A stretch of 58,993 nt of DNA, filler included, from Sphacelaria rigidula (Eukaryota), in NCBI GenBank assembly GCA_964200075.2. It is 7 parts of 7 records of this genome, joined end to end, with 100 filler letters (N's around TTAATTAATTAA, not from the genome) between each part and the next. Parts side by side here need not be neighbours in the genome. Positions count along the whole stretch, not along the records: positions 16,886 to 25,227 come from CAXNAA020011451.1; 6 more parts are not named here. One strand, given 5' to 3'. The notes beneath the pieces were generated by a model. That model had not been told where the DNA came from. It ran no database searches and was given only the letters and a program-made list of their open reading frames with translations. The translations under genes were made by a program, and so were the position numbers. Every line of letters starts with the position of its first letter. Within the stretch, counting starts at the first letter, position 1. This document shows positions 8,344 through 47,400 of this stretch, in pieces.

Positions 8344-8443
8344 NNNNNNNNNNNNNNNNNNNNNNNNNNNNNNNNNNNNNNNNNNNNTTAATTAATTAAN
8401 NNNNNNNNNNNNNNNNNNNNNNNNNNNNNNNNNNNNNNNNNNN
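8344..8443. other. Artificial contig linker (N-run, TTAATTAATTAA, N-run); same linker at 16786-16885, 25228-25327, 33670-33769, 42112-42211, 50553-50652
   Basis: The same 100-nt spacer, with stops in all six frames, occurs six times. The flanking contigs decrease monotonically in length (8343 to 8341 bp). Confidence 0.97.

Positions 8444-13849: not shown

Positions 13850-13908
<59 letters not shown>
13850..13908 (+). repeat. (AAC)n microsatellite, about 19 units
   Basis: Directly visible perfect trinucleotide run. Confidence 0.95.
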
Positions 13909-18876: not shown

Positions 18877-21800
18877 ATGAGCAAATGTGGCGAATCATAT
18901 AACGGAATGGCTGGCTTGTTTACTGCTACCTACGTTTCCAATGTTGCGAAACCCCGTCAGTTTGGCAGGATGGTGAATGTCAAGGATGAGGCGTGCTCCA
19001 AAAAGGGCTGCTCCATGTGGCCGTCGTTTGGGTTGACAGAAAGCAGAAAGGCGGAGTTCTGCTCACAGCACGCAGAGGACGAGATGGTGGATGCTAGCAA
19101 CAACACGTGCTCCACGGAGGGCTGCTCCATGCGGCTTCCCTTCAAGTTAGCGGGAAGTACGAAGGCGGAATTCTGCTCACAGCACGCCGAGGATAGGATG
19201 GTGAAATTAACGAAGAATACCTGCTTCGATGAGGGTTGCTGCAAGCAGGCGTCGCTTGGGTGGGCAGGAAGCAAGAAGCGTATGTTTTGCGCCCAGCACG
19301 CTGAGCGCGGGACGGTAACTGTCACCAACAATACGTGGTCGAGAGAGGACTGCTCCGAGCAGGCGTCGTTTGGGTTGGTGGACAGCAGGAAGCGAGTGTG
19401 TAGCTCACGGCACGCCGAGCGCGGAATGGTAACTGTCACCAACAATACGTGGTCGAGAGAGGACTGCTCCGAGCAGGCGTCGTTTGGGTTGGTGGACAGC
19501 AGGAAGCGAGTGTGTAGCTCACGGCACGCCGAGCGCGGAATGGTAACTGTCACCAACAATACGTGGTCCAGAGAGGACTGCTCCGAGCAGGCGTCGTTTG
19601 AGTTGGTGGACAGCAGGAAGCGATCGTTTAGCTCACAGCACGCCGAGCGCGGAATGGTGAATGTCAGGAGCCACATTTGCTCCCGCAACGGCTGCTTCAA
19701 GCAGGCGTCGTTTGGGTTGGCGGAAAGCAGCAAGCAATTTTTTTGTCCACAGCACGCCGAGGACGGCATGGTGAACGTGAGGCAGAATACGTGCCGCAGG
19801 GAGTGCTGCTCTAAGCGGGCGTTGTTTGGGTTGGCGGGAAGCAAGAAGGCGGAATTCTGCTCACAGCACGCCGAGGACGAGATGGTGAATGTCACGAACA
19901 ACACGTGCTCTCACGACAGCTGCTTCACAAGGCCGTCTTTTGGGTTGGCAGGAAGCAAGAACGCGGAATTCTGCTCACAGCACGCCAGGGACGGGATGGT
20001 GAACGTCAGGAACAAAACGTGCTCCCACGACAGCTGCTCCAAACGGGCGTCGTATGGGTTGGCAGGAAGCAAGAAGGCAGAATTCTGCTTACAGCACGCC
20101 GAGGACGGGATGGTGAACGTCAAGAACGAGACATGCTCCAGGGGCGGCTGCTCCAAGCAGGCGTTGTACGGGTTGGCGGGAAGCAAGAAAGCGGAGTCCT
20201 GCTTACAGCACGCCGAGGGCGGGGTGGCAAATGTCAGGCGGAATACGTGTTCCCGCGACGACTGCGCCAAGCAGCCGTCGTTTGGGTCGGCGGGAAGCAA
20301 GAAAGCAGAATTCTGCTCACAGCACGCCGAGCACGGAATGGTGAATGTCAAGATGAAGATGTGCTCCCGCGACAGCTGCTTGAGGCCGGCGTCATTTGGG
20401 TCAGTGGGAAGCAGGAAGCGAGTGTTTTGCTCACAGCACGCCGAGCACGGGATGGTGAATGTCATGAACAACCCGTGCTCCCGCAGCGGCTGCCCCAAGC
20501 AGGCGTCGTTTGGGGTGGTGGGAAGCAGGAACCGATTGTTTTGCTTACAGCACGCCAAGGGCGGGATGGTGAATGTCACGAACAAAAGGTGCTCCCGAGA
20601 CGGTTGCTCCAAGCAGCCGTCGTTCGGTTCGGCGGGAAGCAAGGACGCGGAATTCTGCTCACAGCACGCTGAGAAGGGGATGGTGAATGTCAGGCGGAAC
20701 ACGTGCACCCGCGAGGGCTGTTTGAAGCAGGCAATGTTCGCGCTAGCGGGAAGCAAAACGCGAGTGTTTTGCTCACAGCACGCCGGGGACGGAATGGTGA
20801 ATGTCACGAACAACCCGTGCTCCCGCGGCGGCTGCTCCAGGCAGGCGTTGTTTGGGGTGGCGGGAAGCAAGAAGGCGGTGTTCTGCTCACAGCACGCCGA
20901 GGACGGGATGGTGAATGTCAGGAACAAAACGTGCTCCCGCGACAGCTGCTCCAAGCGGGCGTCGTTTGGGTTGGCGGGAAGCAAGGAGGCGGAATTCTGC
21001 TCACAGCACGCGGGGGACGGGATGGTGAATGTCGCGAAGAACGCGTGCTCCCGGGACGGCTGCGCTAAGCAGGCGTCGTTTGGGTTGGTGGGAAGTAAGA
21101 AGGCGAAATTCTGTTCACAGCACGCCGAGCATGGGATGGTGAGCATCTGGAAGAAAACGTGCTCCCGCGACAGCTGCTCCAAGCACGCGTCGTTTGGTTC
21201 GGCGGGAAGCAAGAAAGCAGAATTCTGCTCAAAGCACGCCGAGAATGGGATGGTGAATGTCAGGCTGAACACGTGCTCCCGCGACGGCTGCTTGAAGCAG
21301 GCGTCGTTTGGGCTAACGAGAGGTAAGAAGGCGGAATTCTGCTCTCAGCACGCCGAGAGCGGGATGGTAAACATCAGGCTGAACAAGTGCTCCCGCGACC
21401 GCTGCTTGAAGCAGGCGTCGTGTGGGCTAACGAGAAGCAAGAAGGCGGAATGCTGCTCACAGCACGCCGAGGACGGGATGGTGAATCTCAGGCAGAACAC
21501 GTGCTCCCGCGGCAGGTGCTTGAAGCAGGCGTCGTGTGGGCTAACGAGAAGCAAGAAGGCGGAATTCTGCTCACAGCACGCCGAGGACAGAATACTGAAT
21601 GTCGGGAAAAATACGTGCTCCTGTGACCGCTGCCTCAAGCAGGCTTCCTTTGGGTTGGCGGAAAGTAGGAAGGCGGAATTTTGCTCACAGCACGCCGAGG
21701 ACGGAATGCTGAATGTTGGGAAGAATACGTGCTCCCGCGACAGCTACCTCAAGCAGGTGTCTTTTGGGTCGGCGGAAAGTAGGAAGGCGGAATTTTGCTC

Positions 21801-22257
21801 ACAATACGCCGGGGACGGGATGGTTTACCTCACGAGAAATACGTGCATTCGGGATGGTTGCTGCCAGCAGGCGTCGTTTGGGTTGGCGGGAAGCGGGAAT
21901 GCAGAGTTCTGCTCACAGCACAGCGACGACGTGATGGTGGACGTCCGCTGCGGGAAGTACACGCGGCCAGCCACTTGTCGTGTTGAGACACCAGTGAGTC
22001 GCTCGAAAATATTGAAGCTAGAAATTGCTCCGCAAGAGTTGAAGGATAATGGAGGATATTCAAGACGGCCATGCAGTGGTGGAGTGCTGCAGTCCGAGCA
22101 AGCTGTTCCCTCGAAGGGTAGCGCTACAAGAAGAGCCAAACAAGCCCATGCGACTGGTGGACTAGTCCCGGCGCAGGCAGCCCGCAGCACGACTCTCGCA
22201 GGCATGCTGGTGTCCGAGGGCGGGACGAACGTCAAGTCGGAGGTGACCGTTTTATAG
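18877..22257 (+). CDS. EsV-1-7 domain protein with 26 tandem 38-aa cysteine-rich (C-x4-C-x16-C-x2-H) repeats; the true start may be the ATG at 18970, after an acceptor-like site at 18960
   Basis: Uninterrupted 1126-aa ORF. Repeat consensus CSRDGCSKQASFGLAGSKKAEFCSQHAEDGMVNV with a 114-nt period from 18970 to ~21935. This matches the EsV-1-7 motif known from phaeoviruses and brown algae. Confidence 0.9.
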   Translation: MSKCGESYNGMAGLFTATYVSNVAKPRQFGRMVNVKDEACSKKGCSMWPSFGLTESRKAEFCSQHAEDEMVDASNNTCSTEGCSMRLPFKLAGSTKAEFCSQHAEDRMVKLTKNTCFDEGCCKQASLGWAGSKKRMFCAQHAERGTVTVTNNTWSREDCSEQASFGLVDSRKRVCSSRHAERGMVTVTNNTWSREDCSEQASFGLVDSRKRVCSSRHAERGMVTVTNNTWSREDCSEQASFELVDSRKRSFSSQHAERGMVNVRSHICSRNGCFKQASFGLAESSKQFFCPQHAEDGMVNVRQNTCRRECCSKRALFGLAGSKKAEFCSQHAEDEMVNVTNNTCSHDSCFTRPSFGLAGSKNAEFCSQHARDGMVNVRNKTCSHDSCSKRASYGLAGSKKAEFCLQHAEDGMVNVKNETCSRGGCSKQALYGLAGSKKAESCLQHAEGGVANVRRNTCSRDDCAKQPSFGSAGSKKAEFCSQHAEHGMVNVKMKMCSRDSCLRPASFGSVGSRKRVFCSQHAEHGMVNVMNNPCSRSGCPKQASFGVVGSRNRLFCLQHAKGGMVNVTNKRCSRDGCSKQPSFGSAGSKDAEFCSQHAEKGMVNVRRNTCTREGCLKQAMFALAGSKTRVFCSQHAGDGMVNVTNNPCSRGGCSRQALFGVAGSKKAVFCSQHAEDGMVNVRNKTCSRDSCSKRASFGLAGSKEAEFCSQHAGDGMVNVAKNACSRDGCAKQASFGLVGSKKAKFCSQHAEHGMVSIWKKTCSRDSCSKHASFGSAGSKKAEFCSKHAENGMVNVRLNTCSRDGCLKQASFGLTRGKKAEFCSQHAESGMVNIRLNKCSRDRCLKQASCGLTRSKKAECCSQHAEDGMVNLRQNTCSRGRCLKQASCGLTRSKKAEFCSQHAEDRILNVGKNTCSCDRCLKQASFGLAESRKAEFCSQHAEDGMLNVGKNTCSRDSYLKQVSFGSAESRKAEFCSQYAGDGMVYLTRNTCIRDGCCQQASFGLAGSGNAEFCSQHSDDVMVDVRCGKYTRPATCRVETPVSRSKILKLEIAPQELKDNGGYSRRPCSGGVLQSEQAVPSKGSATRRAKQAHATGGLVPAQAARSTTLAGMLVSEGGTNVKSEVTVL

Positions 22258-23418
22258 CACTATTTGTCTGATTTGACGGCTACATAGGAAGTTAATAACT
22301 ATGGTGGAGGCGATGGTCGTGATCCTTCAGGGCTGGTGGCGATGTGTAAGCACTCTGCTGGTGGTCCACAAAGGGTTCTGTGGGCGCCTTTCGGCAGAAC
22401 ACTCGTGGCCAATTCCAGCTGCTGCTCATCGGTTGGTGGTTGTTGGTGGCGTCGTCACCATGTACGGGGATTTGGACGGTCTTGAACAAATAGTGGCAAG
22501 GGTCTGTCTGTTCACGCCTGGAGGATGCAAATTAATGACAGCGTACAATGCAGATTCATCCGCTGAGCATGGAGGCCACGACTAAGGACGTTTTCATTGC
22601 TTGTGCAAAATCTCTTCTTGTTCGAAAGGTGTTCCGCTCATCAAACGCGTGCAGACTGTAGTCGCACATCGTGCTTTGTCTGCCAAGGCCTTGCGAATTT
22701 CTCTGACCCTTGAGTTTGATGTTTGGCGCACACGTAAGGGGTACGTGAAGGTGGTCACCTTGAGATCGGTTGCGCATTAGTCGCGCCGAATGCATTTCAC
22801 CCTGCTTAGAATGCTGGTATATCAGCCCCATTTGTACATGAAACAGGTTGTCAAATGTCGTGATGGCTGAGTGTGTCGCTGCTTGACATTCAATCAATCA
22901 GCCGGTGTTGTCGCTGTGCTTGCTGCTTCCAACAAGAGGACGATCGGCGCTGTCCGAGATCAGCTGAGGAGTCCTGCACGTGACGTACCTAATGAATGCC
23001 GTTTACACGAATATCATTGATCCTCGGGTTTGAACATTCCACACCCTGGACAATTGACATTTCTATTGCGATAGCAATAGAATCCGCTGCAGTAGATGCC
23101 AATATTGTTGTCCGTGATGGCCACCGATCGGCGAGTTTATCTTCCTATTGTCGTTGGTAATGTCTATCGATAGACCAGTTTCCCACATTCTTGTCTGGGC
23201 AGCCGTCTGCTATGGCCTTACACCAAAATCTATTGCGGCCGACTAAATGCATCGGTCGATAGCTTTCCGAATTTATTGATGACGGCAATGGCTATCCATA
23301 GACCGCGTGCCAAATCTATTGATGACGACGATGGCTACCGACAGATTGTATACCAAATCTATTGATGACGGTAATGGCTATTGGTAGATTGCGTATAAAT
23401 CTATGCATGGCGACAGTG

Positions 23419-24577: not shown

Positions 24578-25327
24578 AGTAGGATACCAATCGCGCCCAC
24601 CGAAGTCTACTGAGGGTCACAACAGAATCTGAATCGCGGCTACCGATGTCTACCGCTGGTCATATTGCAATTTGAATCACGGCCACCAATATCTATCGCT
24701 GACCACAAAGGTAGCTGAATGGCGCCGATCACTAGCGATATGTATACACATCTTTCGACTTATGTTTCCGCCTTATTCCACAGAAGCTATGGCCAGCTAT
24801 CGCCTTGGTTCGTTGCCTGTTCATGTGTAAGCGGTAACGCCGTTGATATCATGAGATCACTGGAGTGAGCATTCTACATTTCAAACCCTATCGTTGGCGT
24901 CACTGGCTGTCGATAGGTGCCCCCGAGAGCAATCGATTGTTGACGGCAATGCCCATATTGGTGAACGCGAAAAAATGCATTGTGCGCGGCAGATGCTACC
25001 AATAAACGGCTCACTAAATCGATGAATGGCGGTCACAGGTATTGATGGATAACTCACTTAATCTATTGATAACGGCAATGACTATCTATCTACAAAACCC
25101 ATCATATATTGCGGTACACGATGTCCATCGATGGCCGTTGGCAAATACAATGAACAGCAAATTGTGCGAATTGAGGTTTAACTCTGAATTGAGGCTCAAG
25201 TGGGCAACCCGACTTGCGAACTGTTTGNNNNNNNNNNNNNNNNNNNNNNNNNNNNNNNNNNNNNNNNNNNNTTAATTAATTAANNNNNNNNNNNNNNNNN
25301 NNNNNNNNNNNNNNNNNNNNNNNNNNN

Positions 25328-28440: not shown

Positions 28441-29760
28441 ACGTTTCTTTTTCGCGGCTACGTGTAGTTTGGTGAGACGTAGTAGTTGCCATACGAAGTA
28501 TTTTCCGGGTCTTACAATAAACGTGAGGTTTCAGAGTTTTCCAGCTATGCTGAGTGCGTCTTGCGCGGTCGCGCGTGCCTTGTCGGCGGGCCGGTCGCGC
28601 TCCAGCGATTCTTTGATAGCTTCGACCTTTTCTCGAGTGACCGCTATCCGCATGGTGTGTGTGTCGATCGTGAATCTCAACGCATCCTCACTGGTGTCCC
28701 AGTCTGTACTCTTTTTAGGTGCGAGGATGGGTATCTCGCCCGGCTCTCCGGGACCGAACAGTCTGATGTGGTCTGAGGCTAGCGAAGCTGACGTGGCTAG
28801 CGACGATTTATCCTGCACGCCGTGCTGTACCCTTGCTAGGATATAGTCGTCCACATACACGCTGACGAAAAAGGGGTCGTGGAGTCCCCCCCCGTTTGCC
28901 GGGGGAATAGCGGTGTCGGGCGGGACCTTTGTAGGCGTCCCTTCTTCCCAGGGCTCGACCATGGTCACGTGTTTCATCATCTCTCTACCTTCGTTGAGTA
29001 TTACGGCGTCGAGTATTGTGGTATTGCAGTGTGCATGTTCAGCAGCCTGTGATAAGAGTCCCCACTAGCCGGGGAACCCCTTTCATCCAAACGTGAGCCG
29101 AAAGTCTGCTACTATGACATCGTCTACCACGTAACAGCAGTTTTGCGCCTGGTTGGGCGCGATCCTGACATTTCTGAATGCATTCGAGACGTCCGCCTTT
29201 GACAGTAGGATTCTGCTATCCGGAAACTTGAGACGTAGCCTCAGGAGTGCATTCAGTAGTTTTAGGAGTGCCTCTCCGCAGAGGCATTGCGGCACCTCGT
29301 CCACAATCGTGTCCCGGTTGAGGCCGCCTTTTCCTCCCTTCGGTACGCTGGGGTCAAACGAAAAAACGTTGATGATCCTGACTTTGCCAGTTACCATTGC
29401 CCCAAGGGGACCTCTCTCCAAGGGGGGCCACTCTGAGGCCGCTGATTTCGAGCGCCGCCCCTTTTTCAAACACCAGGCATATGTTCCTTCCTACATCCTC
29501 AACAAACTTCTCCCAGACCTGAGGCATGTGTTCTTCAATACTGCGGTGATTACCGTATTTCAGGGCTCCTCGAAGATCGGGAACGCTACACGATGTTTTC
29601 ATTGGGACTCTGTACTCAATCATGTGTAGTAGTTCTCGTATCCGGGGAAAGTGTATTTGGTTTCCGAAATACTCGTGTACGTCTCTCAGGTTCATCGGCG
29701 GTGACACCAAAGTGCCGCCGAGCCCCTTTGCTACGTCCCCGATTCTTCCGTGGTTGAGTC
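28441..29760 (-). pseudogene. DIRS-type reverse transcriptase (frameshift and stops)
   Basis: YGNH, KVRIIN, KADVSNAFRNV, RLTFG*KG.PG*WG and YVDD motifs. Confidence 0.9.
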
Positions 29761-30109
29761 GGACGAGACTCGTGCAGGTGGCGGCTAGGTCTGTGATGAT
29801 GCGCTTCATTTCTGTTAGGTCTATGTGTGTATTCGATAGTTCTTGCTGTTGCTGTTTCCACCGGGTATTGAGGTTTTTGCTTGGGTGGTCTGTGTGTCCG
29901 GTCGGGCTTCGGTGGCGTGTGGTCCCAACTGGAGGTGACTTTTTCACCGACCCGAAATTTCGCCCACCAATGATCTCCTTACTATCGGTGTTGTTCTTTT
30001 TCTCTGCGGGCTTCTCACTCGTCAATGTGTGCGAGACGTTGTCTGGGGCTACCTGTGTGTAACTATCGGTCAACGGTTTTGTTTCAGTGCACCGGGTGCT
30101 GTTTTGAAC

Positions 30110-30740
30110 TCGTGCACGCTTTGCGCTCGTCAACATGGACGTGCCGTTATCCAGGGTTCCCTCAGAACTGCCAGACAACGGGTCTTCTTCTGCACCCCTT
30201 AAGTCACTAGTTATCGAGTTTGCACGCTTTGCGCTCGTCAACATGGACGTGCCGTTGTTCAGGGTTCCTTCGGAACTACCAAACGCCCGGGCTTCTTCTG
30301 CACTGGGTGTGATTCGAATTTCACGGGGAGCATGAGTTCTGTTATGGTCTGATCTACCGACGTTCAGGGTTACCTGTGCGTAACTGCCGACCGCCGGGTC
30401 TTCATCTGAGCGATGATGGTTGGTTCGACCTCTTGCATGCTTTGCGCTCGTCAACACGGACGTGCCGTTATCCAGAGTTCCCTCGGAACTGCAAGACAAC
30501 AGGCCTTCTTCTGCACCTCTATGTTCTTTTGCTCCCCTTAAGTCACTAGTTATCGAGTTTGCACGCTTTGCGCTCGTCAACATGGACGTGCCGTTGCTCA
30601 GGGTTCCTTCGGAACTGCCAAACGCCGGGTCTTCTTCTGCACCGGGTGTGATTCGAATTTCACGGGGAGCATGAGTTCTGTTATGGTCTGATCTACCGAC
30701 GTTCAGGGTTACCTGTGCGTAACTGCCGACCGCCGGGTCT
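30110..30740 (-). repeat. In-frame internal tandem duplications (108-bp and 339-bp periods) in the ORF upstream of RT
   Basis: GCACGCTTTGCGCTCGTCAACATGGACGTGCCGTT-like units at ~30114, 30222, 30437 and 30561. Block ~30195-30401 is repeated at ~30534-30740. ORF 29354-31225 stays open. Confidence 0.85.
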
Positions 30741-31214
30741 GCTTCTAAACGTCTCCTGTCTGTGGGGATGCGCGAAGTTGTGTTGGTGTGGTTTCTGTAT
30801 GTACTACTGTTGTTTTCGTTAGTCATGGACGGGCGGATTACCTGATCTTGTTGCTGACTTACCTGTGCCCGTTCGTGCGTTCCGTTGTACCACAATGTCG
30901 ACCGGTTACAGTGGTCGTGCGGGCCGTTGTTCGCGTGTTTGTTGATTTTCGTGTCATTGCGCGGGGCGGTGGTTTCATCAAATATTTCATGCGTGTGAGC
31001 TCCACCGTCCAATCTAGTGTACCCTGCCGGCATTTGCTTGTTACAGTACGTCTTGGTGGGGTTGGTCATCGACGTTTTTGTCGGTCGTGGGTACTGCGGA
31101 ATGGGACTACGCGGTCTACCGCTGTGACGTGCTTTTGGGTAGTTAAATGCGTTGGTACTTCTGCTCTCACCGTGAAAGAAGCTTGCCACCACCGATCCCG
31201 GTTGGGGGGCCTGG

Positions 31215-32314
31215 GTGGTATCCACCGACCTCGCTGAGTCCGTGACTGATGCTCCTCCTCCCCCCAGACTGGTAGGCCCCGCCGGCTGGCGGAGCCCGCA
31301 CCCTCAGGTGCCCCGCCCAGCTCCGCCATTTCCGCCGAAGCTGTGGGAAAAGCGCGCCACTGTACTCGCCGCGGCCGCCGGTGCCGCTGGTGCTGGTAGT
31401 TTTGCCGTCGCCGCCGTCGGGGCTGTTGGATTATCTGGAACGCCGCTGGCGGCTGGAGGGGAGGGCCTCCGACGGCTTCATGCTTGCTGGTGTGGTCCGG
31501 GAGGCGGCAGCCGCGCCCCCGTGAGCATGTGAGGCACTGCCAAGCTCGTAAGCAGACGCCCGCCGGCGGGGCCCATGACGCCAGCTCCGTGTTGAAATCG
31601 GTGTTCGGTGGCGTGAGGTATTGCCACTAGGGCGGGCACGGCGGGGGTTGGGGAACGATGCGTTTGACCGCGTTGCTCGTGCCCCCGTCGGGGAGTGCCT
31701 TTCGCTTGACGGCTGTCTTGGGGGCGTGCTGCGCGGGTGAGCCTGCTACCGCTAGCCCGGGGTTTTGGCGACCGATGAGGCTGCTGGGATGGCCGTCGGC
31801 GGTGAGCGTCTTCACGCGAGTGAACGATTGTACCGGCGCCGCGGGGCCCTGCCCGTTGGCGGGTGGGGCGGCGGGAGACTCCATGCGCAGGTTCAGTCCC
31901 GCGTCTCTGCGTTCTGTGAGCCACCCGTTGATGTCGTGGTTAAAATCAGTGATTATACGGGTTTTGACGGCCGCCTCGTCTCTGTGTAGAGCGGCGCAAT
32001 TTTTCCCGGTATACGCGTCCAGCGCCGACACTATCCTCGTCAGCTCTCCTGTGATGAAGGCTCTCCTATCCCGCCCGCCGTCGTTGTCGGTGGGCCGAAG
32101 TTGATGATAATGGCCAGCGCCTTGGTGAAGGTGGCGACGTGCACCTCAGCGCGAAAGTAGCTTTTTTTATGCTAGGCGGCACCGGGGAGTGGAAGTTGGT
32201 GACGTCTACGTCGGTCAACGTCTGGAGATTGCTCAGCATGCCCCGGTTGGTTTCGGCCACGTCGCGGAGTTTTAGTTTCAAGTTTGCATCAGACATGGGA
32301 ATGGAATCGATCAA
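31215..32314 (-). pseudogene. gag-like ORF1 of the Ngaro element (disrupted)
   Basis: Lies immediately inside the 5' repeat. GC-rich, Pro/Ala-rich ORF pieces at 32066-32314 and 31627-32031. No diagnostic motif. Confidence 0.5.
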
Positions 32315-42983: not shown

Positions 42984-43266
42984 CCCCAGTCTCGAATTGA
43001 ATCTATCGTCAAATCTGATAATTAAAATACATTTTGGAGGGGAAAAGAAATATATAGGGACCCGCCAATAATACCTTTCGAGTACATCGTGCACAACCTG
43101 CCCCCGTCTACACGTCGCTTATTGGGCTCTGCAGGACTTTATGCGGCGACCAACCAGCCAGAGTTCAAACAGCATCTAGCAATATTATACTGTGTTATCA
43201 TACAGTATCACATGACGGGAATACTCGAGCTTGAACTACTGTGGTACGGAAGGCAAAAATTCCAAC

Positions 43267-44406
43267 CTTGGAGGCAGGCATGGGCCTGTCGCTGTTTCCA
43301 CTCTCTCTCGGCAGGATGGCCCCGTTGATGACAAACCCGACCAGATTAGCGGCGCGCAGAGCATCGCGCAGATATTCCTGTAACAGGGGCACGAGTATTT
43401 TTTTTCGGTATTTGGTTCGTGAGCGCACAGGGAAACGATGAGAGAGGTCAAAATGACGACGACGACGACGACGACGATGACGACGACGAGGAAAACAACA
43501 ACCACAACGGCACGACACCATGGACAATGACATTACATTAAGTTGGCAAAAAAGTGCACCTGATCCTCGCAGGAGAGCACGTGCTGCCGGAGGGCCGTGG
43601 CGTCGAGACTAGTGAACAGCAGACTGCTTCGAACCAACTCCGGTACTGTGTTGCCCAGTATATCGGCTGCCCAACCTCCGCAAATGGATCGGCCTGCAAA
43701 GTCAGAAATGGACGCGACGGCGGGGGGGATGGGGATGGGGGGCAGGATGGGATGTAATATACTCGTGATCTTGCATGCCGTTGTCATGATATCATTGACC
43801 TCGCATCCCTAAAAAGCCGGGACGGAGCACGCCGGGTTTTGGCCGGACCAGGCACGCAATCAATCAATCACCAAGCGCGAAGCGTCGTGATGTGTTCAGC
43901 GAGTCGCATGAAGGGTGAGCTGCTGCATCCTGCTAAGATGATTCGGCCCGAAGCGTACTGGTCGTCTTGCACACGGACGACAGCCTGAATGGATGATGAC
44001 CTATATTGCTGTCTACCTCACGTATTACCCTACAGTCAGTCACAATCCAATCTTCTGGTTTTTCACCTCTGACAGGCACGGCCACGGTAAAGCTGAATGG
44101 ATGATGACCTATATTGCCGCCTACCTCACAGATTGCGGTACAGTCAGTCACAATCCATCCTTCTTGTTTTTCACCTCTTGCAGGCATGGCCACGGTAAAC
44201 CTCGCCTCCACCGCGCCCCCAGCTTGAACCACCACGCTAGTACGTTCCAGGATGTGCTGCCCCGGCTCGTCGATAGTGATCTCGCCACCTTTTGCGCCAG
44301 ACCAGCCGCCGCTCTGCGTGCGCTGATCTGCGCCGGCTCTCTGAGCGGCCTCAAGGAATCGTCTAGTCAGAAAGTCGCAAAGGGCCACCTTACGCACCTG
44401 GCAAAA

Positions 44407-44442
<36 letters not shown>

Positions 44443-47400
44443 ACACACGCAAGAAGGAAAAAACCAGGAAAACATGCTCTTGGTGTGTTTGAAATACTCG
44501 TCTTCTTGTTCCTGTTTTTTGTTTCTTGTCTTATTCATCTTACTTTTTGGTGTGTTGTGTTGTTTTGTGTGGTGTGTTGTCATCCCATCTGTGCTTGACG
44601 CCAGTCTTTACCATTCGGCTTACGTGGGTACATCAAGCCAGGTCACAGAAGAAAGGTCAACACAAAGAGTTTTTATCCCCTTGTTTTCGTTTTTTTCGCG
44701 CTTGTGTTCCTTCTGCGATGCTTGCTTGTCTTTTTCGCCGCGAGAAGGGGCCAGCGGTCCCTTTTGCTCATCGACCGTGAAGTCGAAATTTTCATCCCAA
44801 CGACACACAACGGACGCTTTTCACTGGGGGGCATGATGTAAGAACAAGACCCAGATCGTGTGACTGCACCGAGATCCGAACCCGTCTAAACCTTCAGAAT
44901 AAATCGACATTATGTGAATGTTTTTTACTTGTGTGAAAATCCAGTGTAGGGGTGGACCTATAGTGAGTACACAGAAGAGTACAGTGGAGTACAGGAGAGT
45001 AGAGTGCAGTAGAGAACAGTTGAGTATAGTCGAGTACAGTTCAGTAGGGTACAGCACAGCACAGCACGGTGCGTCGCATGCCATTGGTTACCTTCTTCTC
45101 TTGAAAAATTAGCCTCGTCCGACCAAATTGAAAAGACACACGAGAAAAAGAGAGAAAGACGTTTGTGAGGGGGAGGAGGTAAAGTATCGCAATTTCGTTT
45201 GTTAGTTCATCCTATTCAATTTTTCTTCCTTCATTGTGTGCGTTGTTATTGTTGTTGTTGTCACTACCTCCTTTCTTATTTTCTGTCTGTGGCTGCTTCT
45301 GTCTTCTTCTGTTCCCCTCCTTCTTTTTTTCTGTTATTTTTGGTGCTGGTCCTGACCACAAGCTGGATTGTTGCAAATCAGCTAAAATATGAAACAATCA
45401 ATCCAATCAGTCCATCATTGTATTTCCGCTTATCTGAGAATGAACAGAGAGCGGACGGGCCCATAGCAAGTCAGTACAGTAAGTTGTTCCGTGCTGTAGG
45501 TAAACAGATAATGACGCAATATCCCGAGGGTAATGAGTTTTTCACCGTCCATGGTTTCACTGTAATAAAATGGTCTCGCACCACCAAACTAAACAAAGAT
45601 CGTTTTCCAATAGTGAAAGTCTCCCAATCATTCTGTCCAATGACACAACATGCCATGATCTGTTTTGTCCAACCAATGACCAACACATTCGCGGGGCGTG
45701 GTCGCAAAACATCTCCATACAAAACGCCAAGTTGAAAAAACCATCATCCGGGGGGGGATGAATGACATACAGTACAGTGACTTATTGTTGCGTCATCTTC
45801 TCGCACCGCTCAACATTTTCGCGTTTTCGTCCCAACAGCAGTTTGGGCGTTGGGACGTGCTTCGAAGAAGTCATCGGGACGTGCTTCGAAGAAGTCATCA
45901 CATAGCAGTCATTGTTATTAATGAGGCATAAATACGTACACACGCAGATCTAGACGCGGAAAATGAGACTCATGCGATAAGTCTTCATAGTGGAACACAA
46001 ATACAGGGGGGAAGGGGGAAGGGGAAAGGGGGAGCAAACCAGGAATGGACGAAATAAAAAAATAAAAAACAAACCCACGCAAAACAAAACAGAACAAGGC
46101 GAAACAAGAGAACCGAAGCGAAGCACTATACCCTTAACAAAACGAAACAAAAATGAAACAGGACCAAAAAGAACTAACTGCAGCAACTACAAAAAAAATG
46201 AAAAAAACACAGAGCCATCCAGCTCTCGACACGCGTCAAGCATCATCACCAACGTTCCCTTCCTGCCTTGCCGACACCTCGATAACTTACCTTTGTAGAG
46301 AACGCCTCCGCTGGAAACCCGGCAACGCTGCCCGGAATCACGACGTGGAACCTGGAGGGGGCAGCAAATGGATCTGCCTGTATCTTATCGACGTGTAGGC
46401 TAAACTCGGGAAGACTCTGTTCACAACGCCGGAGGAAATCCACGGGGCGCATGGCAGATGGAGGGAGAGGGGCGTCGTGGGGGGATATACTCATGATCTT
46501 GCATGCCGCAGTCATAAGACCATTGACCTCGCATCCCCTACAAAGCCCGGACGGAGCACGCCGGGTTTTCGCCGGACCAGGCTCGCAATCAATCGCCAAG
46601 CGTGAAGCGCCGTGACTTGTCCGGCGAGTCGCATGAGGGGTGAGCTGCATCCTACTAAGCTTGTCCGGCCCGAATCGTACTAATTATCTTGAATATGGAT
46701 GGCAGTCTCGAACAAGATGCTTCATTTTGTGGTATTGCCACTTCCAGAGACAGCCACGGGCTACGTACTGCTTCATGGGTGGCTCACCATGTAAACATCT
46801 ACGTGATACAATCATCCCCTTGGCGCGGAGTTCGGCTTCTCCGCCCCGCACAATATGATCGAGCTCGATCACCATTACGGTGAACGCAAAAAAAAAAACG
46901 CAGGCAGAGAAACAAGGTGACCCGCTTGCCTAGCTTACGCAGTGAGTGGCGTGTTTTACAGGGACATTGCCAACCTACGCCAACCCTCAAAAAGCGCGCG
47001 CGCGGGGGGGTGGAGAGGGGGGCAAACGTGAAGATCCTGGTAGAGGTTAGGTGAAAAATGAAATTATTCTCAGGAACCAAAACCCAAGTATGTATAGTAG
47101 ATGATGACACTAATATAATTAAGTTGAACAGGGGGCAGGTGGTGCCATGTAGCCGTCGAAATTTTCCAAGGGTCGGACGAATTAATGATTCGTTCGGAAA
47201 TTACGTGATTTAAGTGAAATTGATTCATACCGTACGAATCAGTCCTTAGGCTTTGTTTCCAGCATTGTAACCCAGGTATGCGCAGCCCAGGCACGTCGAA
47301 TGGCGCAAAAGTTGCGTGGATACCTACTTGATCAGCGGTCAACTTTTTTCTCTCTTTCGAGCGATCAGGCCTAAGCAATCGTGGATTTGGTAATTCGAAC

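What the first reader, a model, noticed from the sequence alone, without database searches (positions are those of the whole stretch)
18970..21945. 26-module EsV-1-7 C3H zinc-finger-like array with fixed scaffold and variable positions: candidate modular recognition protein
Seen: 26 gap-free 38-aa units in one ORF. The scaffold (C-x4-C, (S/L)FG, GS, FCSQHA, GMVNV) is near-constant. Variation concentrates after the second Cys (SKQA, SKRA, FTRP, AKQP, LRPA, SKHA), before the first Cys (RNKT, RRNT, KMKM, TNKR, WKKT) and in two alternative loop types (KKAEF vs RKRVF). The tail ends in LKLE and VKSE, which fit the psi-K-x-E SUMO consensus. Known: EsV-1-7 repeats are shared by brown algae and their giant viruses and are expanded in Ectocarpus (IMMEDIATE UPRIGHT family); I know of no established ligand. 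Inference: the architecture resembles TALE, PPR or C2H2 arrays and could be a programmable nucleic-acid binder acting in TE or virus control.
Basis: partly seen in the sequence, partly recalled or inferred. Interest (0 to 1): 0.75.

Follow-up and report, generated by a model that had tools for sequence, protein, structure and literature searches.

The report
Brown-alga protein of 26 zinc repeats
A brown-algal gene encodes a protein made almost entirely of 26 copies of a small, known but functionally unexplained zinc-binding repeat (EsV-1-7); it is an unusually long member of a known family and shows no sign of a TALE-like recognition code.

Summary
Window 18877-22257 (+) is one open 1126-codon frame. 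It holds 26 gap-free 38-residue EsV-1-7 units (Pfam PF19114, 26 stretches; TRF 114 bp x 25.7). The ligand pattern is C-x4-C-x16-C-x2-H, intact in 22 of 26 units.

A spliced neighbour gene has brown algae as its best matches, so this is a host gene. The family is known and hugely expanded in brown algae. No relative I retrieved comes near 26 units: the maximum is 16 in 231 relatives and 12 in 121 giant-virus frames.

Variation is non-uniform but diffuse. The top 2 positions hold 11% of the entropy, no site is clearly above neutrality, and the 'loop types' are repeat lineages. This does not fit a TALE/PPR-like code.

DNA binding is plausible by association only. 100 of 231 relatives, and 46 of 50 complete giant-virus frames, carry the array in front of a conserved, putatively Vsr-like nuclease domain. 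This gene lacks that domain. The scan noted such viral array-nuclease fusions before, on other DNA.

AlphaFold gives a confident fold with no clear PDB match. Expression is unproven.

The parts
18877..22257 (+). Single open reading frame of 1126 codons plus stop. It is the whole predicted gene, with no intron needed.
   Evidence: There is an in-frame stop 24 nt upstream of the first ATG (sequence read). Other in-frame ATGs stand at codons 11 and 32.
18877..18981 (+). N-terminal 35 residues. They end in a G-R-M-V-N-V remnant of a unit and hold no zinc ligands, so this is probably a decayed 27th unit.
   Evidence: TRF's array starts only at 19006.
18982..21945 (+). 26 head-to-tail EsV-1-7 units of 38 residues (114 nt) each, pattern C-x4-C-x16-C-x2-H.
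19324..19665 (+). Units 4-6, degenerate modules. Trp replaces the first Cys, and the third Cys is shifted (units 4, 5) or lost (unit 6). Units 4 and 5 are identical over 114 nt and unit 6 is 93% identical, so this is a recent local triplication or possibly an assembly effect.
21718..21831 (+). Unit 25, a degenerate module with Tyr for the second Cys and Tyr for the His.
21946..22254 (+). C-terminal tail of 103 residues. It is basic (net +9, pI 10.1), has no Pfam family, and has no match in 231 relatives. It holds LKLE (1046) and VKSE (1119).
   Evidence: The HMM of the viral C-terminal domain finds nothing here.

Best explanation
This is an intact, intron-less nuclear gene of a brown alga. It encodes a basic protein that is almost nothing but 26 contiguous EsV-1-7 modules.

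Shown here:
- family membership;
- four ligand positions (Cys5, Cys10, Cys27, His30) that are nearly invariant across the family;
- purifying selection on the scaffold in this reading frame;
- a confidently predicted, regular, linker-less beta/coil structure;
- absence of any catalytic or other domain.

Inferred: each of the 22 intact modules holds one zinc ion. The array forms a long, positively charged rod that binds DNA along an extended stretch without cutting it. On this reading it is the 'array-only' host form of a module that, in most of its nearest giant-virus-type relatives, sits in front of a putative Vsr-like nuclease domain and would aim that domain at DNA.

If binding is sequence-specific, recognition is spread over many surface positions. 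These lie mainly around the first Cys knuckle (positions 1-2, 8-9, 11-12) plus positions 25 and 33. It is not a one- or two-residue code per repeat.

My odds: EsV-1-7 array protein about 0.97; real, constrained gene about 0.8; DNA (or other nucleic-acid) binding about 0.5.
For: Family: PF19114, 26 stretches, 1076.6 bits.

Ligands in 1049 repeats of 166 relatives: C5 986/986, C10 1022/1037, C27 1029/1036, H30 1026/1035.

Constraint between units: pS 0.379, pN 0.226, omega about 0.51. Ligand codons have pN/pS 0.08-0.15.

Structure: six units (9-14) with an alignment of 84 relatives give mean pLDDT 92.4 and pTM 0.62. No 10-residue block falls below 86. There are short strands at unit positions 16-18 and 35-37 and a helical turn at the C-x2-H. 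Two units give pLDDT 86.7.

Charge: pI 9.14, array net +49. Family-wide conserved basic residues stand at positions 3, 12, 22 and 23.

Association with DNA enzymes:
- Pfam confirms EsV-1-7 arrays in 50 of 50 complete giant-virus frames that I scanned.
- 46 of those 50 end in a 147-204-residue domain with invariant D78, E91, D93, E94, H97, R108, R125, N127, P128 and D129.
- An HMM of that domain finds it in 100 of 231 relatives of this protein. That includes 81 of the 139 new proteins from the unbiased representative search. It finds it in 0 of 42 relatives named as brown-algal, and not in this protein or window.
- Weak pointers to a Vsr/PD-(D/E)xK nuclease: Pfam MTES_1575 in 2 of 46 (E 0.01) and Hjc in 2 of 46; Atlas feature hits to DUF559 (0.85) and 'very-short-patch-repair endonuclease' (0.84), which are leads only.
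- The D..H..D spacing is 19 and 32, against 18 and 28 in Vsr (residue numbers from passages of PMC3239194).
- A Tc1/mariner transposase with an N-terminal EsV-1-7 domain is reported in Ectocarpus (PMC12477816, passage).

Host origin: a spliced ABC-class ATPase gene 21 kb away has its best matches in Pylaiella (76%) and Scytosiphon (77%). No viral hallmark appeared among 114 window frames scanned.
Against: - Nothing here shows zinc or DNA binding; the DNA argument is guilt by association.
- The nuclease identity of the viral domain was not established by sequence. The profile search of PDB found nothing (best E 0.82), and PHROGs gave single chance-level hits in 2 of 46 members.
- The only structural resemblances are weak and are to protein-binding zinc domains. 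These are RING (Z 3.2, rmsd 2.6 A, 43 aligned) and LIM/PHD-type folds at Foldseek E above 1.
- Four of 26 modules have lost ligands, and overall omega is 0.5, so part of the array may be under relaxed constraint.
- A repeat without stops keeps frames open by itself. Other frames across the array are open for up to 453 codons.
- Units 4 and 5 are identical, so the count of 26 depends on the assembly.
- Expression is not shown.
Confidence: 0.5

Rival explanations
1. It is a protein-protein interaction scaffold. The modules would be small zinc-stabilised adaptors like LIM, RING or PHD fingers, and the array would assemble or bridge protein complexes, for example in developmental signalling as for IMM. 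Nucleic acid would not be the ligand.
For: The only structural resemblances found are to RING domains (Z 3.2, 2.9, 2.5; Z 2.4). LIM, PZP/PHD, B-box and RBR entries appear at Foldseek E 1.8-9. The one family member with genetics, IMM, is described as a protein of unknown function with a developmental phenotype (PMC7457493, passage).
Against: All these matches are below any level of confidence; the tool notes that Z under 8 is common for unrelated models. The recurrent fusion of the array to a putative nuclease and to a transposase places it where DNA-binding domains usually sit. The array is strongly basic.
Confidence: 0.2
2. It is an RNA-binding array, as with many Cys3His fingers, acting on transcripts or viral RNA.
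For: The ligand set is Cys3His and the protein is basic. A weak Foldseek row points to GRF zinc fingers, which bind single-stranded nucleic acid (E 4.2).
Against: The spacing C-x4-C-x16-C-x2-H differs from the classical C-x8-C-x5-C-x3-H RNA-binding finger (spacing recalled, not tested). Pfam gives no hit to any CCCH family. The enzyme fusions seen are with DNA enzymes.
Confidence: 0.1
3. It is a young, runaway tandem expansion with little or no function. On this reading it is a member of a fast-turnover family, drifting or decaying and possibly not expressed.
For: Four of 26 units lack ligands, and units 4-6 are a very recent triplication of an already defective unit. Omega between units is about 0.5 and several sites are neutral. 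The N-terminus is a decayed unit and the tail has no relatives. No run on record as RNA holds the gene. A preprint reports that EsV-1-7 genes behave like young, peripheral genes in Ectocarpus (10.64898/2026.04.27.720984, passages).
Against: The frame is open over 1126 codons through units that differ by 9-41% in DNA, so the array is not recent as a whole. Ligand codons are under strong constraint (pN/pS 0.08-0.15). Internal diversity is ordinary for the family: mean pairwise identity is 0.59, and 41 of 98 comparison arrays are as uniform or more so.
Confidence: 0.12
4. It is a TALE/PPR-like programmable binder. Each module would read one base or a few bases through a few fixed hypervariable residues, giving a decodable cipher.
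For: The modules are gap-free, the scaffold is constant and variation is significantly non-uniform (p=6e-7). Six of the ten most variable positions lie within positions 1-12 around the first Cys knuckle.
Against: The top 2 positions hold only 10.8% of the entropy. No site has pN/pS clearly above 1; the maximum is 1.37. Variants follow repeat lineages: the R-K-R-V loop units form one clade with support 0.95, units 21-23 one with 0.99 and units 24-25 one with 0.90. In 49 nuclease-type arrays the within-array profile is likewise diffuse, with a maximum of 1.85 bits at position 15. It correlates at rho 0.88 with array-only relatives. The fold is not a helical solenoid.
Confidence: 0.06

Closest known systems
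EsV-1-7 domain family of brown algae (Pfam PF19114 / IPR043822), including Ectocarpus IMMEDIATE UPRIGHT (IMM)
   Same: It has the same repeat by Pfam, the same Cys3His pattern, and a brown-algal host genome. Like the Ectocarpus members it has no other Pfam domain (10.64898/2026.04.27.720984, passage).
   Different: It has 26 units. The 42 relatives named as brown-algal have a median of 5 and a maximum of 10. All 231 relatives retrieved have a maximum of 16. IMM is described with five repeats and a unique N-terminal domain (10.1101/2024.02.19.579948, methods passage), whereas this protein has only 35 residues before the array. It stands alone in the window, not in a tandem gene array.
Giant-virus-type proteins with an N-terminal EsV-1-7 array and a conserved C-terminal, putatively Vsr-like (EDxHD/DUF559-like) nuclease domain.
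   Same: The repeat and the period of about 38 residues are the same. The within-array variability profile is similar (rho 0.48 with this array). These proteins make up 81 of the 139 new best-scoring relatives in the representative library.
   Different: They have 2-12 units and a C-terminal domain of 147-204 residues. This protein and its whole window lack that domain.
TcMar-2_Ec32 transposase of Ectocarpus with an N-terminal EsV-1-7 domain (PMC12477816)
   Same: An EsV-1-7 module is joined to a DNA-acting enzyme, and the authors suggest an uncharacterised zinc finger (passage).
   Different: This gene has no transposase domain and no terminal inverted repeats around it.
Poly-zinc-finger arrays of the C2H2 type, such as KRAB-ZNF and PRDM9 (recalled, not tested beyond Pfam)
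   Same: These are long tandem arrays of small zinc modules. Variation is spread over several surface positions, and the arrays grow by unit duplication. This is the best functional analogy if the array binds DNA.
   Different: The ligand pattern and spacing differ. Pfam gives no C2H2 hit. The predicted structure is beta/coil rather than beta-beta-alpha, and there is no linker between units.
TALE and PPR repeat proteins (recalled)
   Same: They are gap-free tandem modules with a constant scaffold.
   Different: Those are helical solenoids with one or two specificity residues per repeat. Neither feature is found here.

Membership tests
EsV-1-7 cysteine-rich repeat family (PF19114) | Match to the Pfam model above its gathering score | tested here: met
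   1076.6 bits against a cut-off of 25, with 26 stretches
EsV-1-7 cysteine-rich repeat family (PF19114) | Four conserved ligand positions, C-x4-C-x16-C-x2-H | tested here: met
   Intact in 22 of 26 units. The same four positions are at least 98.6% conserved in 1049 repeats of relatives.
EsV-1-7 cysteine-rich repeat family (PF19114) | Zinc binding by the motif | not testable with these tools
   [quoted passage not shown] No solved structure of a relative exists by sequence search.
IMMEDIATE UPRIGHT orthologue | The IMM-specific N-terminal domain in front of five repeats (as described in 10.1101/2024.02.19.579948) | tested here: not met
   Only 35 residues, a decayed repeat, precede the array. 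The IMM sequence itself was not compared.
Giant-virus-type EsV-1-7 array plus nuclease-like domain | Conserved C-terminal domain of about 190 residues with invariant D, E-x-D-E, H and N-P-D | tested here: not met
   The HMM of 46 viral domains finds nothing in P0001 or in six frames of the window; the best E-value is 0.24 with a negative score.
TALE/PPR-like coded repeat | One or two hypervariable specificity residues in otherwise near-identical repeats | tested here: not met
   The top 2 positions hold 10.8% of the entropy. The highest pN/pS is 1.37.
TALE/PPR-like coded repeat | Alpha-helical solenoid fold | tested here: not met
   The AlphaFold model has short strands and coil, and no helix of 4 or more residues. 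This is a prediction only.
C2H2 zinc-finger array | Match to C2H2 models and a C-x2-4-C-x12-H-x3-5-H pattern (pattern recalled) | tested here: not met
   No Pfam family other than PF19114 at E up to 0.01. The ligand spacing differs.
Treble-clef or RING/LIM/GATA-like zinc fingers | Structural superposition on a solved member | tested here: inconclusive
   The best Z is 3.2 to a RING domain (rmsd 2.6 A, 43 aligned). Foldseek E is 1 or more.
Vsr-like / EDxHD nuclease (for the relatives' C-terminal domain, not for this gene) | Recognisable homology to Vsr, DUF559 or I-Bth0305I | tested here: inconclusive
   Pfam MTES_1575 in 2 of 46 at E 0.01. Atlas DUF559 at 0.85, a lead only. PDB profile search found nothing. 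PHROGs gave nothing useful. The motif spacing is compatible.

The most novel reading that the evidence does not exclude
Brown-algal 'array-only' EsV-1-7 proteins, of which this 26-module gene is the extreme, would be domesticated DNA-targeting heads of giant-virus homing-type nucleases. An array this long would then recognise a very long or reiterated DNA target. It could act as a non-cutting site-occupying factor: a transcriptional or chromatin regulator, or a guard that shields host or proviral sites from the related viral nucleases. That would give the largest brown-algal gene family a molecular function and define a new class of modular DNA-binding zinc array.
Probability: 0.12. Interest if true: 0.8.

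Novelty: new member of a known kind. Interest (0 to 1): 0.36.

Why it matters
EsV-1-7 genes form the largest orthogroup across brown-algal genomes. One member, IMM, controls early development, yet no ligand or structure is known (passages). This gene adds no new kind of element.

It is, however, the longest and cleanest natural array I could find: 26 units, no linkers, no other domain. That makes it a convenient substrate for zinc stoichiometry, structure determination and DNA-binding assays.

The context gathered here makes the DNA-binding hypothesis concrete and testable. Most of the nearest relatives carry the same array in front of a conserved nuclease-like domain, while the host forms lack it. 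My searches of the held library ('EsV-1-7' alone; with 'zinc finger'; with 'endonuclease') found no paper that describes such a fusion. The founding paper (Macaisne et al. 2017) and the supplementary tables of the genome paper could not be read, so the fusion, or longer arrays, may be in print there.

Tried and rejected
Expression. The look-up of sequencing runs listed 9 holders in 3 studies, and no RNA holder is listed; four small runs are only guessed to be RNA. Read laying on 21830-23265 (the repeat array itself was not sent) shows contigs of all 4 runs over the end of the coding region and over 22442-22966. There are no joints, and there are holes at 22262-22309 in all runs. Contig depths cannot rank parts of a gene, so this says nothing about transcription, RNA ends or splicing. 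The copy number of the array could not be checked against reads.

Whole genome. None is held, so paralogues and tandem gene clusters outside the window are unknown.

Viral scans. The pattern from the unit alignment gave 4 loci. My unit profile finds only 11-residue fragments in them, and PF19114 finds nothing in them, so they are false leads. The scan with a 152-residue piece found nothing. Alignment A3 was too variable for the tool.

Solved structures. phmmer with the whole protein found none. The unit profile gave only a chance match to sortase, E 0.27.

Fold searches. Foldseek found no match at E up to 0.001 for either model. VIA wide gave a best Z of 2.4 and 3.2. This does not show that the fold is new.

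Viral C-terminal domain. Pfam found nothing at E up to 0.001. PHROGs gave two single chance-level hits. The PDB profile search gave a best E of 0.82.

Unusually uniform modules (a periodic target). Rejected: within-array identity is 0.59, and 41 of 98 comparison arrays are as uniform or more so.

Mobile element. There are no flanking inverted repeats; the inverted matches inside the array are parts of the repeat itself. There is no Rfam family in the window.

Tail and N-terminus. No BLAST match at E below 1 in 231 relatives. The psi-K-x-E motifs therefore cannot be judged by conservation.

Papers. Macaisne et al. 2017 is not held. Table S17 of 10.1101/2024.02.19.579948, which lists 2018 family members, is a closed bioRxiv supplement and may hold longer arrays.

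Earlier notes by place and by sequence returned nothing.

Complex prediction was not used: no protein partner is claimed.


Full report
OBSERVATION

The window holds one open frame at 18877-22257 on the + strand, 1126 codons. Tandem Repeats Finder reports a 114-bp unit, 25.7 copies, at 19006-21939, with 78% matches. Pfam assigns the protein to PF19114 (EsV-1-7 cysteine-rich motif) with 26 separate stretches and no other family.

Cut every 38 residues from residue 36, the protein gives 26 units in perfect register. The 25 distinct ones align in 38 columns without a gap. The ligand pattern is C-x4-C-x16-C-x2-H. It is intact in 22 of 26 units:
- Units 4-6 carry Trp for the first Cys and have a shifted or lost third Cys.
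- Unit 25 has Tyr at the second Cys and at the His.

Units 4 and 5 are identical over 114 nt and unit 6 is 93% identical. All other pairs are 59-91% identical. So the array as a whole is old, with one very recent local triplication of an already defective unit, or an assembly effect.

The 35 residues before the array end in the tail of a unit and look like a decayed 27th copy. The 103-residue tail is basic and has no relatives. A profile of the units finds no other copy in six frames of the window.

WHERE IT SITS

The window has few long frames. Pfam on 114 frames of 85 residues or more finds only exons of an ABC-class ATPase on the minus strand at 43201-46683. The best matches of one such exon are brown algae: Pylaiella 76%, Scytosiphon 77%, Choristocarpus 82% over a shorter part. 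Next comes the xanthophyte Tribonema. The best-matching named relatives of the array itself are also brown-algal: Sphacelaria, Pylaiella and Ectocarpus, at up to 61% over four units.

No viral hallmark gene and no flanking inverted repeats were found. I read it as a host nuclear gene of a brown alga. No protein near-identical to it is in the 5.8-billion-cluster collection; the best match has 45% identity over 38% of the query.

HOW UNUSUAL IS THE ARRAY?

The family is large. 6388 cluster representatives match at E up to 0.001 and 946 at up to 1e-30. Papers describe 2018 members in 31 brown-algal and sister genomes and call it the largest orthogroup (passages).

Unit counts in what I retrieved:

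| Set | n | Median units | Maximum units |
|---|---|---|---|
| All relatives retrieved (pattern count) | 231 | 7 | 16 |
| Relatives scanned with Pfam | 80 | - | 12 stretches |
| Relatives a source names as brown-algal | 42 | 5 | 10 |
| Giant-virus frames | 121 | - | 12 |

So 26 is well beyond anything I could retrieve. The published family table could not be read, and gene models in metagenomes are often cut.

Internal diversity is ordinary. Mean pairwise identity of units is 0.59, and 41 of 98 comparison arrays are as uniform or more so.

THE VARIATION

Per-position entropy is highest at positions 1, 2, 8, 9, 11 and 33, then 25, 12, 4 and 20. Variation is non-uniform (p=6e-7) but diffuse. The top 2 positions hold 10.8% of the total, the top 6 hold 28.6% and the top 10 hold 43.4%.

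Between units pS is 0.379 and pN 0.226 (omega about 0.51). Ligand codons have pN/pS 0.08-0.15. The most variable sites (1, 2, 7, 11, 24, 33) have 1.03-1.37, which is near neutral and not clearly above it.

- The eight units with the R-K-R-V-like loop (3-7, 13, 14, 16) form one clade, support 0.95.
- Units 21-23 form a clade with support 0.99.
- Units 24-25 form a clade with support 0.90.
- The S-K-R-A units 8, 10 and 18 lie together with unit 9.

Across 1049 repeats of relatives, only C5, C10, C27, H30 and M35 are almost fixed. Many positions that are constant in this array (6, 7, 15, 21, 28, 29, 31, 32) are free in the family. Much of the 'fixed scaffold' is therefore shared ancestry of the units rather than structural need. 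Array and family entropies correlate at rho 0.46.

Within-array variability profiles of 49 nuclease-type arrays and 49 array-only relatives agree with each other (rho 0.88) and with this array (rho 0.48-0.49). Neither has an outstanding position. This does not fit a TALE- or PPR-type cipher.

STRUCTURE

With an alignment of 84 relatives, AlphaFold2 predicts units 9-14 at mean pLDDT 92.4 and pTM 0.62, with no weak linker. Each unit has short strands at positions 16-18 and 35-37, single bridges at 4, 13 and 26, and in some units a helical turn at the C-x2-H. Two units give pLDDT 86.7.

Neither model has a convincing match among solved structures:
- Foldseek best E is 1.4 for the six-unit model and 1.0 for the two-unit model.
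- VIA-align against 48,161 chains gives a best Z of 2.4 and 3.2, both to RING domains.
- The weak rows are all small zinc domains: RING, LIM, PHD/PZP, GRF and the nsp13 zinc-binding domain.
- No relative by sequence has a solved structure.

I could not inspect coordinates. Zinc geometry and surface clustering of the variable sites therefore remain untested.

WHAT THE MODULE DOES ELSEWHERE

Following a lead from earlier notes of this scan, I scanned viral contigs with a degenerate pattern for the conserved end of the unit. 121 loci hold a frame with 2-12 units. I then picked 50 complete frames, and all 50 are PF19114 arrays.

In 46 of the 50, the array is followed by 147-204 residues. These align well (mean column identity 38%) with invariant D78, E91, D93, E94, H97, R108, R125, N127, P128 and D129.

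An HMM of this domain finds it in 100 of 231 relatives of the window's protein:
- 10 of 27;
- 81 of 139 new ones;
- 9 of 65 new ones;
- 0 of the 42 named as brown-algal;
- nowhere in this protein or window.

Its identity as a Vsr-like nuclease is only weakly supported here:
- Pfam MTES_1575 and Hjc each hit 2 of 46.
- Atlas feature hits to DUF559 (0.85) and a Vsr-named cluster (0.84) are below the level the tool calls more than a lead.
- The acidic-His-acidic spacing is like that given for Vsr in PMC3239194 (passages).
- PDB and PHROGs give nothing.

Separately, a paper reports an Ectocarpus Tc1/mariner transposase with an N-terminal EsV-1-7 domain (PMC12477816, passage). Precomputed Pfam labels show single relatives with retroelement gag or reverse-transcriptase domains. 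The module thus recurs in the place where DNA-binding heads of nucleases and transposases sit.

MECHANISM AND ODDS

Shown: a constrained, domain-pure array of 26 EsV-1-7 modules in a host gene.

Inferred: one zinc per intact module; a long basic rod (pI 9.14, array net +49); binding of DNA without cleavage, with recognition spread over many positions, if it is specific at all. I put DNA or nucleic-acid binding at about one half.

Rivals are a protein-interaction scaffold (0.2), a drifting expansion with little function (0.12), RNA binding (0.1) and a true fixed-position code (0.06).

COMPARISON AND NOVELTY

It is a member of the EsV-1-7 family by every feature I could test. By architecture it is not an IMM orthologue and not a member of the viral array-nuclease group (see the membership table). 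It is a new, extreme member of a known kind. The family's function is the open question, not this gene's existence.

The scan has already noted EsV-1-7 arrays fused to nucleases on other DNA. What this window adds is the host array-only extreme, and the count that most of its nearest relatives are of the nuclease-bearing type.

CAVEATS

- Expression is unproven (see Tried and rejected).
- The unit count rests on the assembly.
- The founding paper and the family's supplementary table could not be read.
- Structural statements are predictions.

Noticed in passing
window 23030-23221 (and 23062-23254): About 800 bp downstream of the stop codon lies a very high-copy element. Summed contig depth reaches about 93,000 in run X1 and about 38,000 in X3, against 25-80 in the neighbouring sequence. 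Many contigs have loose ends at 23062, 23157, 23220 and 23254.
   Followed up: no
window 23270-23404, 23418-23443/23641-23666, 23642-23671/24325-24354, 24589-24708: MITE-like structure. There are two 43-bp tandem repeats, plus inverted repeats of 26-30 nt ending in a run of C/G, 92% and 83% complementary.
   Followed up: no
window 29357-31303 (-): A 649-codon open frame with no Pfam family lies in a G+C-rich stretch with strong AT skew. It holds internal direct repeats of about 70 residues and a non-repetitive C-terminal part. It may be part of a mobile element or an unannotated gene.
   Followed up: no
window 43201-46683 (-): Exons of an ABC-class ATPase gene (Pfam ABC_N, ABC_ATPase) are separated by introns. 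The best matches are in brown algae. A 108-bp unit is repeated twice at 43985-44199, inside one exon-bearing frame.
   Followed up: partly
window, 12 blocks of N: Pairs of 44-base N blocks, 12 bases apart, recur every ~8442 bases (8441-8442) (8344, 16786, 25228, 33670, 42112, 50553). This looks like masking of the record rather than biology.
   Followed up: no
window 22213: T>C in the contigs of three runs of 'organism A', but not in the 'algae metagenome' run. It is the first base of codon 1113 in the tail, which would change Ser to Pro. X3 differs at 21866, 22406 and 22584.
   Followed up: no
loci L005-L129 (IMG/VR giant-virus contigs): Frames with 2-12 EsV-1-7 units are followed by a conserved domain of about 190 residues. 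The domain has invariant acidic, His and N-P-D residues and, at its start, a C-x-C...C-x2-C cluster. Pfam does not name this domain.
   Followed up: partly
relatives P0034, P0080, P0066; L043, L010, L018: Pfam models Zf_WRKY19 (PF24906), CoV_NSP13_ZBD, Cys_rich_KTR, DUF1936 and DUF2769 give whole-protein scores over their cut-offs on EsV-1-7 arrays, but no single stretch passes. These are cross-matches of Cys-rich motifs, and they could mislead automatic annotation.
   Followed up: no
window 13850-13908: A perfect (AAC)n microsatellite of 19.7 copies.
   Followed up: no
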